Source: Prorocentrum cordatum
Lineage: Eukaryota
Assembly (NCBI GenBank): GCA_963575745.1
Contig: CAUYUJ010000314.1
Coordinates: 62,001-126,000 of the forward strand
Reading direction: 5' to 3'
DNA: 64,000 nucleotides
Shown: one piece after another, positions 44,259 to 51,270 of the stretch
Layout: each line of letters starts with the position of its first letter
Numbering within the stretch: position 1 is the stretch's first letter
Notes under the pieces: model-generated
The model's input: the letters and a program-made list of their open reading frames with translations, nothing else
The model's database searches: none
What the model was told of the DNA's origin: nothing
Made by a program: the position numbers and the translations under genes

Positions 44259-45099
44259 GCCGTCATACATCTACAACGCCCCGCGACGCCTGAAGCAAGT
44301 CTTGCCGACCCCCCCCCCTCGCCCCCGCTTTCGGTGTTCCGTGGCGCGCGCGACACGGCCCGCGGACGCTGACGGCACTTTGAAGTCGTTTGTTTCGGCA
44401 TGAGGATTGTCATTTGTTTCGGCCTAAAAATTGAACTTCGGGGGCCTGGGGGTGCCGACGCGGGGCAGGAACAAACTTGCTTCCAGTTTCGCAGAGGGAT
44501 GTAGGCCTCCCAAATGGGGTCCGAGCATATGGGGTCGGGGGATTGCGCCGCTCGCCGATGCGTCGGCGATGCGGCTCGATGCGGGGCCCGATTTTCTCCT
44601 CGCCGACGTCGCGGATACGTCGCCGACGTCGCCGATGCATCGCCGATACATCAACGATGCGCCGACGATGCATCGACGATGCAGCGCGGTCCCCCGACCC
44701 CATCCACTCCGACCCCATTCGGGATGCCTCCTTTTGTGTAGTCCCAGGCATGCAACGTCTTGCACGCATCAGGGCTGATTTTTGGCCGGCGTCTTCGGCC
44801 TCGGGGGGCCCTCGCCAGGCCCCGGGGACCGCCGCGAAAGATTCGGGACGAACAACCGGCCCTGGGGAGGGGGGAGGGAGGAGGCAGGACCAGCGCTCAG
44901 ACTGAAGGGGGGGGTTCGGGCCGTCCTGAGCATCAATCCGCTGCCCCTCTGGGGGGCTATCACGGCAAACGACAGGGACAGCCACGGAGACAGGCGGATG
45001 GCTCTCGTCTCGTGAAACGATCCAGGCTTACATCTCCCCACTCGGTTTACCAATCTTCTCGAGGTCGGTAGGGGCTGACTCAGCTAGTTCTTTGGCCAG

Positions 45100-45340
45100 C
45101 TGGGCCAACGAGGTCGGAACTTCCAAAATTATCGGCGAGTTGGCGGCCCCCTTGGCATGTCTACCCTCCATAGCACGTTGCTTGTGTAGCCTTCTGCCAT
45201 GGTTCGGGGCTCGCCTGGGCACTCGTCTTGGAATCCTCGCGTGCCTTCCGTGAAGGTTCCACACTTCCAGCACAGGATCACACTGAACGGGGTAAAATCG
45301 TCAGCATAACCGAAAAAAGTAGGGCTCGTGTCCACGGGGA
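45100..45340 (-). pseudogene. LINE ORF2 C-terminal Cys motif
   Basis: VILCWKCG...ECPG, the same motif type as the fragment at 16526-16801. Confidence 0.55.
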
Positions 45341-45779
45341 TTGTTCACTAAATCGGCGTGAATCTGGCAAAATCCTGGGCAGGTCTCTCGGGCTCGTCGC
45401 TGCATGGCAGATTGACTGCCGCATCGTTGTCTACAAGCAGCGCGCAGCAAACTTTTCTCCCAGGGGTGCCATTGGTGCTTTCTCGGTCTTTCCGTAGTGG
45501 AGAAGGGGGGAGGGCTCACAGGTGAGGGCGGGGGGGGAAGGTCCCAAGAGGTTCCAGCCGCTGCCGCCCCCGTGGGCGGGTTCTCAAGCTCTGGATTGGC
45601 TTGTCGACAGCTTTGGCACCAACCCTGGGGGCCACTGTTGGCCACAGCAGTAGGGCCTCTGAAACGAAACGAAGGTGCTTTTAGCTAGCAGTTGCTTCTG
45701 CTGCTCCTGGGCTTCGATGTCAGTCTGACTGGGTTGTGAGGCTCGGGCGGCTGCGATCTTAGCATACCTGTCTGCAGCC

Positions 45780-46340
45780 TCGTTGCCTTTGGCCCTTCTC
45801 CGATCAAGAAAGGCAGGCTGAGCTCAGAAATGTTGACGTGCGCTTTGATCTTGTTTAACTCAGTGTGTGAATTACCTACCCCGCTTTCGCTTCCAAGCAA
45901 AACCAAGTCATACCACGCGCCTCCTCGTCAAGCGGCCTGACCAGTACAGGCCGTAGTTTGGCATCGCTTGGTATCTCTTGGAAGCGAGGGTGGTCAAAAG
46001 CGAGGTAGGTTTGTTTCCCCCTATTAACCGCGGCCCCAGAGGGGGTCGAACAGCCGCCGCCCAGGACCTTGAAGGCCCCATAAACAATCGGTCCTGGCGA
46101 GATCGGCCTTCTTATGCACGTCTATGGCTCCTTGATCATCAGCAGCAATCACAGCACAGTGCTCAGCAGCGGGGGAGGAGGAAGGGAGGCGACTGCCCAC
46201 GCGCCCGATGAGGTAGGCAAGAACTTCTCCGTGCCCATCGATCGATATGACCGACCAGCCCGCTACGTTATAAGCTTTACGGCCCCCTGGTTTCAAGCAG
46301 GATCCGTCCGTGAAAATTTCGCCCGTCAGGGCCTCCTCAG
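45780..46340 (-). pseudogene. LINE ORF2 RNase H domain
   Basis: IFTDGSC...AGWSV...SSPAAEHCAVI in ORF 46024-47127, and KIKAHV at ~45835-45855. Confidence 0.82.
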
Positions 46341-47099
46341 GCCTAAGACTAGGGTCTCTGCACCCAAACTCGGCATATTCGAACCCAAACCTCTCAGGAG
46401 CCCCGTTATCGAATTCTGGTTGGAATTGATACCCGTATGCTAAAGCCAGATCAGACACCCTCGAAATCGTGTCAAGCTCGTCTCTCGTAAAAGGCTCTCT
46501 AAGGGCGGCGCTGAGAGGGCAGTGCAAGCGGCGGTGCTTCAAATCATCCCTAGCATGCCAGCGCTGGCACCGGTCGCCTGTATCATAGCCTGCACTCTGC
46601 AGGCGCGCGTTGGTCCAGGTGCTTTGGGTGAGAAAACTAATCCGGGTGGATCTGGCTTTCTTGGGTAAGGTAGGCTCCACCAGTATTTTCCTAGCTATAT
46701 CCACATGAAGGGTCTCCTGGGGGTGTCCTAGCTTCTGGGCTGCCTTCCTAAGGACGACCTGTTCCCAGGCCTCCTGCATCTTTCGCGAAATCATTTTGGG
46801 CGTGCAGGTTGCAAGCGGCAGTCGGGATCCGCTCGCATCCTGCAGCTCAGAAGCAGAAAAGACGCTCCAGTCAATGCTACGCAGGGATAATAAAGCAGCC
46901 CCAAAGGGACCCCTTTCGGCAGCCCGTTTGGAAGGAGGGGCTTGGAGGATGGGCTCAGCGAGGGCCTTCAGTTCTAGGAGTTCCCGAGGATGTTTCGGTC
47001 GGGTCGCAGCGCGCCAAACCGTCGTGGCCCAAGTCAAGGCGGGTCCGAGTCCCGCTCTCCGCGTGGGGTCTTCCAGCACCGCCAGGCTCAGAGATCGAC

Positions 47100-48979: not shown

Positions 48980-49900
48980 TTACCCCGCGGTCCGTGGCCA
49001 GAAAGTGATAGACTTGATCAAGGGCAGCTTGGTTTCCCCCTGGATCGGCGCGGCAGTCTCGTTATTCAGGATCCCCTCTGCGGCGTCGAGCGCTGCTTCC
49101 GTGGTTATCCACTCTCGCTCTGGGGGCTTGGGCCCAAAAACAGGCTGGGTGGGCAGGCGTTGCGGCTTGCAAAGAACAGGGGCTGTGAATTTCTGTCCCA
49201 CCTTGATGCAACTGCTTACTGGGCGGTGTGGGGACAGTGGATATGCTGTGCGCACTCGGGGGTCATGAAGTACATGTTGCAGACATCCACTATAAACAAA
49301 TCGATCCAAACAGCTCTGGGAGGTCCTAGTTCTGCGCGTGGGGGAGGAGGGGTGTATGATTTGCATGCCAGCGCGCTGTGTGAAATCGTGCTTCCTGAGC
49401 TTGGTGGGGCACATTGAAACCTCCTGCTATGCACATAGGTATTTGATTCCCATTGTGTAAAATGGCGGTGACCGCCAGCACGTTCAAGTTGGTCTAATTC
49501 AAGTCGGTGCTAACTTGCCTGCGCGCGGATAGAATTCTTATGATACCGAGTCCAGGCAGCTCTACCCTGGCACCAGCCAGGCGTCCCTGTGGAAGAACTT
49601 CTTGAGCTTCCCTTGGAATTTTCATGTCCTGGATCCCGAAGTCAAAACCATCCTGAAACAAAGCAGAATCTCCAGCTGACGGGGTGCCCGTAGAACTGAT
49701 TGCGCCCATCTCAAACACAATTTTCCATCCATGTCGCTCATGCCACTGACTGGCGTAAGTGATAGACTGCGTGGTGCGCAGCTTTGTCTCCTGTGCGCGG
49801 ATGACGTGGTCATCTGTGGCGTGCTCAGAACGGATGTACTCTTTGACCTGCGGCCAGCAGCTGCTGTTGATGGTAGTGATGCTGATGTTGCTACCCACGC
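48980..49900 (-). pseudogene. LINE ORF2 apurinic/apyrimidinic (APE) endonuclease domain, frameshifted
   Basis: Motifs ISITTIN, AQETKL, GWK...TGTPSAG, IAGGFN (GDFN equivalent), CLDRFV and LSPHRPV (SDH equivalent). Confidence 0.85.
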
Positions 49901-51059
49901 GCTGGGACCGCAGGACGCTCTGCGGCATGTTGGGCAGCAGCAGTCTCCGCCGTGAGCTTGAGCTTCTTGCTGGCTTCTTCGCCGTGGAGCTCCTGCTTGG
50001 CGATGTTGGCCTGGCAATTGACGAGCTGTTCGGCGGCGCGCTTCCTGGCGGCCTCCATCTGCGCGTCATCGTCGCTGGGGACAGGGTGGACAGAGGCATC
50101 TGGGGGAACCTCAGCCTTGATAGGCTCGCCCTCAGGATCCTGGCCCGCCCTTGGGAGTGGTTCTTCGTCGTCAGCTCTATCCTAGGCCTTGATCCTCTCC
50201 TGGTCGTTGCTGTTCTCCTCCGTCGCCTTCTGCTGGTGCTCGATGGTCACGAGAATCTTCGCCATGGCCAGGAGGTGTTGGTCGAGTTCTTTCGGGATGT
50301 GGTCAGCAGGCTTGTCGATCCTCGCAGCGATGAGGGAGCGCATGGCATCTGACATCGGCACTTCTGCGCCATGCGCTGGGCCGCTGTCTGCTGGGCCACC
50401 TGCAACTGCGTCTGCAGGCGGTACACGTCCTTGTGGGCCTCTTGGTAGTCGTCCAAAGCTCTGGCGTGCTTCTCTGCGACGAGGACCAGCTGCTGGGTGA
50501 GCTGGTTGACCGTGTTCTTGCTGCGTCCGAGCTTTCGCTTGGCCTGTCCGAGCTGGTCGGTGAGGCTCTGGACTTGCTTATCTGGAGTCTTCTCTTGTAG
50601 GGCACGCTGCTTCGCCTGCTTGAGACATTCGACCGCGTCTCGATACTCTTTGTTGCCGTCACCTTTCCACTGCTTCCAGAAAGCCACCTGCGCCTCGGCC
50701 AACTCGATGGCGGAGCTGTGCTCCACAGCAGGCTTGGTGGCGATGGCGGCCTGGCATCCGTCGAGGTGAGGCTCAGGCGCAACAGGGGGTGCTGGCCGAG
50801 CTGCTGCTGGTGGATCACGAGATCGTCTTCGCCATCGTCCACGTCCTGCCTTCGGCTGCCCTGCTTCTCCTGCGAATGAGACTTGGCGCGGCCGCTGGGA
50901 ACGAGAGGAGGCACCCGTGGCAGACACGTCATCTCCTGCGGACATCTTCTTTGTAGCGAGCTTTGTGCCACATTTGGTGCAATGCGAAGCTCCACGATCC
51001 GCCCATGTCCAGCCGCTGCAGCCGTGCCAGGGGCAGGCGAGATACTTGCCCTGCGCCAT
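49892..51059 (-). pseudogene. LINE ORF1 (N-terminal Zn-ribbon-like Cys motif plus coiled coil)
   Basis: ORF 50247-51059 starts MAQGKYLACPWHGCSGWTWADRGASHCTKCG and has a heptad-like segment (VQSLTDQLGQAKRKLGRSKNTVNQLTQQL). It continues after a frameshift (~50370) and a stop (~50183) to ~49892. Confidence 0.75.
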
Positions 51060-51248
51060 CCCGCCTCCTTCCTAAGCAGTAGAACGATTCCCAGGACGAG
51101 TAGTGCAAGAAGGCCCCGCGGGTGGGGCGGGTGGTCCACACGCTGCTGTGGACGAAACGTGGCCAGAACGGTCTGAGCCTTGGCTGCGGCGGACAGCCAA
51201 AGCTAATCGCTGGTTCTCGGGCGTCGACAGCCCTTTACAACGTTTAGC

Positions 51249-51270
51249 CTTGAGCCAGAATGGCTCCGGG
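51249..51270 (-). promoter_or_regulatory. Relic dinoflagellate spliced leader (DinoSL) at the LINE 5' terminus
   Basis: Minus strand reads CCCGGAGCCATTCTGGCTCAAG vs DCCGTAGCCATTTTGGCTCAAG: 19/21 identity over the invariant part, about 190 nt upstream of the ORF1 ATG. Confidence 0.9.

What the first reader, a model, noticed from the sequence alone, without database searches (positions are those of the whole stretch)
44890..51270. Near full-length LINE whose 5' end is a dinoflagellate spliced leader
Seen: the element starts exactly at CCCGGAGCCATTCTGGCTCAAG (19/21 to DinoSL), directly against a GGGAGGA tract, followed by ORF1 and APE-RT-RNase H. Known: relic SLs mark retroposed dinoflagellate mRNAs, and LINEs normally define their 5' end with an internal promoter or a ribozyme. 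Inference: this family's RNA is SL-trans-spliced before TPRT. The integrated SL carries AG dinucleotides that could act as the next trans-splice acceptor, giving a promoter-less LINE that regenerates its own capped 5' end from read-through transcripts.
Basis: partly seen in the sequence, partly recalled or inferred. Interest (0 to 1): 0.85.

Follow-up and report, generated by a model that had tools for sequence, protein, structure and literature searches.

The report
Dead LINE copy starting with spliced leader
A broken but full-length copy of a jumping gene (a LINE) begins with the short leader tag that dinoflagellates splice onto their messenger RNAs, so it was copied from a leader-tagged RNA, but one copy cannot show that the whole family depends on this.

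Summary
The 22-mer sits at 51270-51249 and matches the DinoSL at 19 of 21 positions. It is the only such match in the window (0 of 100 shuffles gave one). It abuts a 168-bp (CCTCCCT)n tract and is followed by a 190-nt leader, ORF1, and an APE-RT-zinc finger-RNase H ORF2.

The copy is full length (about 6.38 kb, 51270 to 44885) but dead. ORF2 has at least 6 frame changes and 3 in-frame stops, and a 182-bp high-copy inverted-repeat insert.

A 13-nt direct repeat and the same pyrimidine tract flank both ends. The leader therefore arrived with the LINE in one insertion and was not already at the target.

Best reading (0.55): reverse transcription ran to the 5' end of an SL-trans-spliced LINE mRNA. 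Main rival (0.25): an unspliced SL RNA or SL-like gene transcript was joined on. In favour, the leader is followed by GC, and the first 80-90 nt look several-fold more abundant than the LINE body in a public DNA run.

Family-wide SL use and the self-regenerating, promoter-less cycle could not be tested. No genome, RNA run or second copy's DNA was available. Nothing in the window independently confirms a dinoflagellate host.

The parts
51269..51436 (-). (CCTCCCT)n microsatellite forming the 5' flank, an uninterrupted pyrimidine tract on the element's strand
   Evidence: TRF period 7, 23.4 copies, 90% matches; sequence
51268..51280 (-). Upstream copy of the 13-nt direct repeat CCTCCTCCCTCCC (candidate target-site duplication); it overlaps the first 3 nt of the 22-mer
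51249..51270 (-). DinoSL-like leader, 19 of 21 to the consensus (T>G at SL position 5, T>C at position 13)
51060..51248 (-). 5' leader of 189 nt. It starts with GC and holds three weak SL-like remnants at about 51205-51160. The first 111 nt fold into four hairpins. It is in frame with ORF1 and separated from it by one TAG (51074-51072).
   Evidence: z -3.22; 0 of 200 shuffles fold as well
50250..51059 (-). ORF1, open for 270 aa: Cys4 zinc-ribbon-like motif near the N-terminus, then a heptad-rich stretch. It continues with a frame change towards about 49900. No family match.
   Evidence: 0 Pfam families; no homologue found
49080..49892 (-). ORF2 apurinic-type endonuclease (APE) domain, with one frame change and a stop at 49496
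47150..48540 (-). ORF2 reverse transcriptase, in three frames, with stops at 48048 and 47569
46114..47150 (-). RT thumb, zf-RVT zinc finger and the N-terminal part of RNase H (399-aa open piece 46027-47223)
45859..46040 (.). 182-bp insert with nested inverted repeats (MITE-like) that interrupts RNase H. Very high copy in the public runs.
   Evidence: (one contig skips 45858>46041; bin depth 9650 in X1)
45140..45864 (-). RNase H C-terminal motifs and the C-terminal Cys/His region of ORF2, with further frame changes
   Evidence: weak matches, E 0.003-0.3
44885..45139 (-). 3' untranslated region, with no poly(A) or other tail
44872..44884 (-). Downstream copy of the 13-nt direct repeat, followed by 10 more pyrimidines of the same tract

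Best explanation
This is a dead, full-length copy of an L1-like LINE (ORF1; ORF2 = APE, RT, zinc finger, RNase H, Cys/His tail). It was inserted by target-primed reverse transcription into a (CCTCCCT)n microsatellite.

The RNA template carried a dinoflagellate-type spliced leader at its 5' end, and the reverse transcriptase ran to within 0-3 nt of that end, so the leader was written into the DNA. The likeliest source of the leader is ordinary SL trans-splicing of the LINE's own pre-mRNA, as for other nuclear mRNAs of dinoflagellates.

Shown: the motif, its position, the domain order, the decay, and the flanking repeat. Inferred: TPRT, trans-splicing as the source of the leader, and a dinoflagellate host.
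For: - The leader is unique in the window and far beyond chance.
- It lies 190 nt upstream of the ORF1 ATG on the same strand.
- A 13-nt direct repeat brackets leader plus LINE. The 3' junction lies against the same kind of pyrimidine tract as the 5' junction, while only 2.7% of minus-strand 20-mers in the window are that pyrimidine-rich.
- ORF2 aligns end to end with intact 1551-1690-aa relatives. Their profile is closest to human LINE-1 ORF2p among solved structures (E 6e-14; R2 2e-7).
- The architecture (APE-RT-RNase H, TSD, no poly(A)) matches the dinoflagellate LINEs described in PMC5890265 (passages).
- 2 changes in 21 nt of leader fit a decayed copy.
- DinoSL relics are the accepted mark of retroposed dinoflagellate mRNAs (PMC7245778, PMC12014239, PMC6050394).
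- RT-type functions ('RNA-dependent DNA replication') are enriched among DinoSL-tagged retrogenes of Symbiodinium (PMC5585692, passages).
Against: - There is one copy only.
- The leader is followed by GC, a donor-like dinucleotide found after the SL in SL genes.
- In run X1, 25 contigs (summed depth 342) cover 51228, against 3-6 contigs and depths of 10-67 at sites in the LINE body. Three diverged contigs stop at 51209-51221. So the first 80-90 nt may also exist apart from the LINE.
- The repeat lies in a microsatellite, so it is weak as a TSD.
- Host identity is not confirmed: 0 of 119 and 1 weak hit of 20 other ORFs have a Pfam family, there is no Rfam match, and three of the closest protein fragments carry a EukProt label of a green alga.
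- A preprint on Symbiodinium found no overlap between functions enriched in DinoSL-relic genes and in RT genes (10.1101/783902, passages).
Confidence: 0.55

Rival explanations
1. The 5' module is not a spliced product. It is an unspliced SL RNA or a transcript of an 'SL-like' gene (leader, intron, partial leader repeats). It became joined to the LINE cDNA either by template switching at the end of reverse transcription, or by read-through from such a gene lying upstream of the master copy (5' transduction).
For: - The leader is followed by GC. In Fugacium kawagutii all 18 SL-gene introns start with GU or GC, the genes are 103-292 bp long, and they may hold several partial leaders (PMC6616646, passages).
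- Weak partial leaders lie at about 51205-51160.
- The first 80-90 nt are several-fold more abundant than the LINE body in X1: 25 contigs and depth 342 at 51228, against 4 contigs and depth 18.6 at 51006.
- The module is strongly structured.
Against: - The excess is only 2-fold in X2 (depth 16.6 against 8.3, 2 contigs each), and contig depth is a crude measure.
- No Sm-type or SL RNA family match at E up to 10, though a dinoflagellate SL RNA model may not be in Rfam.
- No SL RNA gene of this organism was at hand for comparison.
- Trans-splicing of mRNAs is the rule in dinoflagellates, whereas SL RNA chimeras have not been described in the papers searched.
Confidence: 0.25
2. The leader was already at the target, as a relic of an older retrocopy at the edge of the microsatellite. 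A LINE that starts further in happened to land just downstream of it.
For: Diverged contigs that end at 51209-51221 could mark the true 5' end of the LINE. Microsatellite repeats make the 13-nt duplication easy to get by chance.
Against: The 3' junction would then have to abut a pyrimidine tract of the same kind by coincidence; 2.7% of positions qualify. Contigs in a de Bruijn assembly also stop wherever copy number changes, so the contig ends prove no boundary.
Confidence: 0.08
3. The 21-mer is a chance or convergent look-alike in a genome that does not use DinoSL, and it has no link to trans-splicing.
For: No independent marker of a dinoflagellate host in the window. Green-alga label on three close protein fragments.
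Against: 0 of 100 shuffles give even a 3-mismatch match anywhere in 64 kb, on either strand. The match sits exactly at the element's boundary. Labels of culture-derived protein sets can be wrong or mixed.
Confidence: 0.04

Closest known systems
[quoted passage not shown]
   Same: A genomic DinoSL on the sense strand at the 5' end of an intron-less coding unit, at 5'-UTR distance from the start codon.
   Different: The retrocopied RNA here encodes the retrotransposition machinery itself. The leader is complete and is not the truncated CCATT.. relic. Flanking repeats typical of TPRT are visible.
SymbioLINE-type LINEs of Symbiodinium (PMC5890265)
   Same: APE (Exo_endo_phos), RT and RNase H in ORF2, an upstream ORF1, target-site duplications, conserved UTRs and no poly(A) tail (figure legend read).
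   Different: ORF1 here has no DNMT domain (0 Pfam families). That paper's main text never mentions a spliced leader (0 occurrences; supplements not read).
Human LINE-1 ORF2p (nearest solved structure) and its 5' transductions and U6-L1 template-switch chimeras (the last two recalled, not from a call)
   Same: APE plus RT in one protein. The clade profile hits L1 ORF2p best. Extra RNA sequence at the 5' end can be carried in with the copy.
   Different: An RNase H domain and an extra Cys/His tail are present. There is no poly(A). The 5' addition is a spliced leader.
Trypanosomatid L1Tc/ingi LINEs (PMC1874656, PMC8190864; abstract openings seen)
   Same: LINEs living in a genome where mRNAs are SL-trans-spliced.
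   Different: Those carry an internal promoter (Pr77) that gives unspliced transcripts. Here the 5' end is the leader itself.
SL-gene-specific LINEs SLACS, CZAR, CRE and NeSL-1 (recalled, not from a call)
   Same: A LINE found next to spliced-leader sequence.
   Different: Those sit inside SL RNA genes, with gene halves on both sides, and use a restriction-like endonuclease. Here the 3' flank is microsatellite, not SL gene, and the endonuclease is APE-type.

Membership tests
APE-type non-LTR retrotransposon (LINE), L1-like | Apurinic-type endonuclease N-terminal to the RT in one ORF | tested here: met
   Relatives carry Exo_endo_phos in 4 of 9 scanned (one below Pfam's cut-off). They align to 49892-49080. 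The clade profile hits ExoIII and L1 endonuclease.
APE-type non-LTR retrotransposon (LINE), L1-like | Reverse transcriptase of the LINE type | tested here: met
   tblastn E 1e-59 to 1e-63 over 48540-46114. RVT_1 in 5 of 9 relatives, 2 of them below the cut-off. The best solved match is LINE-1 ORF2p, E 6e-14. The window's own pieces give no RVT_1 hit.
APE-type non-LTR retrotransposon (LINE), L1-like | Target-site duplication and a defined 3' end | tested here: inconclusive
   A 13-nt direct repeat is present at both junctions, but it lies within a microsatellite. There is no poly(A).
APE-type non-LTR retrotransposon (LINE), L1-like | Placement in a named LINE clade by RT phylogeny | not tested
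SymbioLINE-Dnmt (PMC5890265) | DNMT domain in ORF1 | tested here: not met
   0 Pfam families in the ORF1 pieces.
DinoSL-tagged retrocopy | DinoSL encoded in the DNA, sense strand, upstream of the coding sequence | tested here: met
   19 of 21 positions, 190 nt upstream of the ORF1 ATG.
DinoSL-tagged retrocopy | The host uses DinoSL trans-splicing | not testable with these tools
   No genome held. No RNA run listed. No informative gene in the window.
DinoSL-tagged retrocopy | Transcripts carry a fresh SL in front of a relic | not tested
   No RNA data.
SL-gene-specific LINEs (SLACS/NeSL type; features recalled) | SL RNA gene sequence on both sides of the insert | tested here: not met
   The 3' flank is the pyrimidine tract, then unrelated sequence.
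Small-RNA/LINE template-switch chimera (features recalled) | Whole unspliced small RNA, 3' part included, at the 5' end | tested here: inconclusive
   GC follows the leader and the 5' module is in excess in X1. No SL RNA gene was available to compare, and there is no Rfam hit.

The most novel reading that the evidence does not exclude
The family has no promoter of its own and lives off SL trans-splicing. Copies that land in sense orientation in transcribed DNA are read through. An AG inside or at the end of the integrated leader serves as the 3' splice site, helped here by a 168-nt pyrimidine tract that the insertion site supplies directly upstream. A fresh capped leader then restores the exact 5' end. 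Use of the terminal AG of the leader would leave no relic, which is what this copy shows. A preference for (CCTCCCT)n targets would make every new copy splice-ready.
Probability: 0.15. Interest if true: 0.8.

Novelty: new member of a known kind. Interest (0 to 1): 0.45.

Why it matters
Which reverse transcriptase drives the massive mRNA 'recycling' of dinoflagellates is an open question. The review read here leans towards LTR elements (PMC6050394).

A LINE copy that carries a leader and shows TPRT-type junctions would show that a non-LTR machine copies leader-capped RNA right to its 5' end.

If the whole family does this, it would be a third way for a LINE to define its 5' end, beside internal promoters and ribozymes, in a genome that largely lacks gene-specific promoters. 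It would contrast with trypanosomatid LINEs, which make unspliced transcripts.

As it stands, the finding is one decayed copy and a largely expected consequence of known biology.

Tried and rejected
**Other copies of the element**
- Whole genome: none held.
- Other copies in the window: none. In blastn, the 80 printed of 87 rows were self or microsatellite hits. tblastn with the long relatives found only 46081-49895.
- Metagenome contigs searched with ORF1: 1 locus (L001).
- An alignment of 14 relatives was too divergent to scan with.
- Viral contigs: 3 scans, no relatives. Prokaryote genome contigs: none.

**Protein searches**
- Leader-plus-5'UTR peptide: nothing at E up to 10.
- Leader through ORF1, read with X at the one stop: nothing.
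- The 399-aa piece in the near-length search: 1 hit.
- ESM Atlas gave only generic zf-RVT/RNase H clusters, with no useful taxa.

**Sequencing runs**
- No RNA holder was listed.
- X3 and X4 laid nothing.
- The laid contigs are masked at 51266-51300 and their letters are not returned. Whether other copies end at the leader could therefore not be read.

**Other checks**
- Earlier findings of this scan: nothing relevant.
- Rfam: no ribozyme, SL RNA or any other family.
- PDB with a single relative: no hit.
- The two primary SL RNA gene papers are not held.
- The strain label on the closest protein fragments is not in the taxonomy copy or in any paper searched. 'Pyramimonas' plus 'spliced leader' gave no paper on trans-splicing in that alga (listing only).

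**Considered and rejected**
- A site-specific insertion into an SL RNA gene (wrong 3' flank, APE endonuclease).
- Assembly error as the cause of the frame changes. An independent 1037-nt contig of X1 spans 49169-50205 with 14 mismatches and 0 gaps, and so shares the stop at 49496 and the frame change near 49410.
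Full report
**Observation**

It lies on the minus strand at 51270-51249, and the whole element reads right to left. Against the DinoSL consensus printed in PMC7245778, the 21 specified positions show 2 mismatches. This is the only match in the window at up to 3 mismatches, and none of 100 dinucleotide-preserving shuffles gave any.

On the element's strand the leader is preceded by a period-7 (CCTCCCT)n tract of 168 bp. It is followed by 189 nt of leader sequence and an ATG at 51059.

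**Anatomy**

Pfam sees almost nothing in the window's own ORF pieces: 2 weak, sub-threshold hits in 15 pieces, one of them zf-RVT. I therefore searched the longest open piece (399 aa, 46027-47223) against 1.84 billion representative proteins. It gave 423 hits at E up to 1e-3 and 9 at 1e-30 or better.

Intact relatives of 1551-1690 aa carry Exo_endo_phos, RVT_1, zf-RVT and RNase_H, several at scores below Pfam's cut-offs. They align along the element in order:
- APE 49892-49080
- RT 48540-47150
- zinc finger and RNase H 47150-46114

RNase H C-terminal motifs and a Cys/His-rich tail are recognisable down to about 45140, from weak matches. A profile of 14 relatives finds human LINE-1 ORF2p as the nearest solved structure (E 6e-14), ahead of R2 (2e-7).

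ORF1 (270 aa open) has a Cys4 motif and a heptad-rich stretch but no family and no detectable homologue. The element is thus a full-length L1-like LINE of about 6.38 kb. It is the only one in the window.

**State of the copy**

Between the aligned segments the frame changes at least six times in ORF2, with more changes in the C-terminal part. There are in-frame stops at 49496, 48048 and 47569.

A 182-bp piece with nested inverted repeats (45859-46040) interrupts RNase H. One public contig lacks it, and it is present at very high depth.

An independent 1037-nt contig spans 49169-50205 with 14 mismatches and no gap. At least that stop and frame change are therefore not assembly errors.

**Boundaries**

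The 13-mer CCTCCTCCCTCCC occurs at 51280-51268 and again at 44884-44872, and the 3' copy is followed by ten more pyrimidines. Only 2.7% of minus-strand 20-mers in the window are that pyrimidine-rich.

The simplest reading is one insertion of leader plus LINE into a pre-existing microsatellite, with a duplication of about 13 bp. The repeat overlaps the first CCC of the 22-mer, so the cDNA reached within 0-3 nt of the RNA's 5' end. There is no poly(A). This matches the dinoflagellate LINEs described in PMC5890265, which have TSDs, conserved UTRs and no poly(A).

This geometry rules out an insertion into an SL RNA gene. It makes a pre-existing leader at the target unlikely.

**Source of the leader**

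In dinoflagellates the leader is added to nuclear mRNAs, and genomic relics mark retroposed mRNAs. A full-length LINE cDNA is therefore expected to begin with it.

Two observations keep a rival alive:
- The leader is followed by GC. In Fugacium kawagutii all SL-gene introns start with GU or GC. Those genes are 103-292 bp long and may hold partial leader repeats (PMC6616646).
- When Logan contigs of four runs were laid at 80% identity, X1 gave 460 contigs (78 at 99% or more, 76 at 95-99%, 133 at 90-95%, 173 below 90%) and X2 gave 156. The family is therefore multi-copy with a spread of ages. In X1, 25 contigs with summed depth 342 cover 51228, against 3-6 contigs and depths of 10-67 at body sites, and three diverged contigs stop at 51209-51221.

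The first 80-90 nt may therefore also exist apart from the LINE body. In X2 the excess is only two-fold. The tool masks 51266-51300 and returns no contig letters, so I could not see what other copies have at the leader.

**Possible older leaders**

Behind a 43-nt spacer lie three weak SL-like stretches. The best is CCGCAGCCA...AGGCTCA. The summed score of the top three in the 100 nt after the leader is reached by 8 of 2532 windows. Two of those are overlapping windows at the locus itself (one of which includes the leader), and four lie in an unrelated (CAAGATGGCC)n minisatellite. This is suggestive only. It fits both repeated recycling and an SL-like gene.

The truncated relic that inner-AG re-splicing leaves directly behind a fresh leader is absent. 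Use of the leader's terminal AG would leave no trace, so the self-regenerating model is neither supported nor excluded. The first 111 nt fold unusually well (z -3.22). No ribozyme or other Rfam family is present.

**Host**

The window has a mean G+C of about 0.58. It has no recognisable gene outside the LINE: 1 weak hit in 20 long ORFs and 0 in 119 shorter ones.

Three of the closest protein fragments (67, 43 and 72% identity) carry a EukProt label of a green alga. I could not resolve this. A dinoflagellate genome with 59.7% G+C is on record (PMC10666404, passages), so composition is no objection. The dinoflagellate assignment nonetheless rests on the leader itself.

**Literature**

Searches:
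- dinoflagellate, spliced leader, retrotransposon and LINE
- DinoSL, transposable element and LINE
- non-LTR retrotransposon, spliced leader and trans-spliced
- DinoSL and retrotransposon

Passages read in eleven papers turned up no description of a LINE whose 5' end is a DinoSL.

The nearest statements are:
- Enrichment of 'RNA-dependent DNA replication' among DinoSL-tagged retrogenes of Symbiodinium (PMC5585692).
- The opposite remark in a preprint, that DinoSL-relic genes and RT genes do not overlap in function.

Supplements were not read.

**Verdict**

The leader was part of the retrotransposed RNA. I file it as a new member of the known class of DinoSL-tagged retrocopies, of moderate interest.

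Noticed in passing
window 45859-46040: 182-bp insert inside the LINE's RNase H region with nested inverted repeats (14-nt arms 93% and 29-nt arms 79% complementary). Depth about 9650 in X1 and 1400-3200 in the metagenome run X2, and one contig lacks it. It looks like a very abundant MITE or introner-like element.
   Followed up: partly
window 29300-29910: Minisatellite of about 10-bp units (CAAGATGGCC and variants, three blocks) that resembles the 3' half of the spliced leader (GGCTCAAG). It scores as high as the LINE's 5' leader in the SL-likeness scan. Origin unknown.
   Followed up: partly
window 44503-44729: Palindromic element in the LINE's 3' flank: 49-nt terminal inverted arms (82% complementary) around tandem 11-nt CGATGCA-type repeats.
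   Followed up: partly
window 44794-44826: Short stretch with many contigs that break off on both sides (15-24 loose ends per side in X1 and X2; bin depth 268 in X1). It is the core of another high-copy repeat just outside the LINE.
   Followed up: no
window 5824-6200, 10985-11139, 15425-17375, 20794-22290, 33005-35795, 39207-39378: Many further (GGGAGGA)n/(CCTCCCT)n tracts, which coincide with strong GC-skew bins. This microsatellite is a major component of the window.
   Followed up: no
window 51072-51270: The leader, the 5' UTR and ORF1 are in one reading frame, separated by a single TAG at 51074-51072.
   Followed up: partly
proteins P0001, P0016, P0025: The closest protein fragments to this LINE (67, 43 and 72% identity) are filed in EukProt under a Pyramimonas culture label with very high record numbers. 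Either that data set is mixed or mislabelled, or the family is not confined to dinoflagellates.
   Followed up: partly
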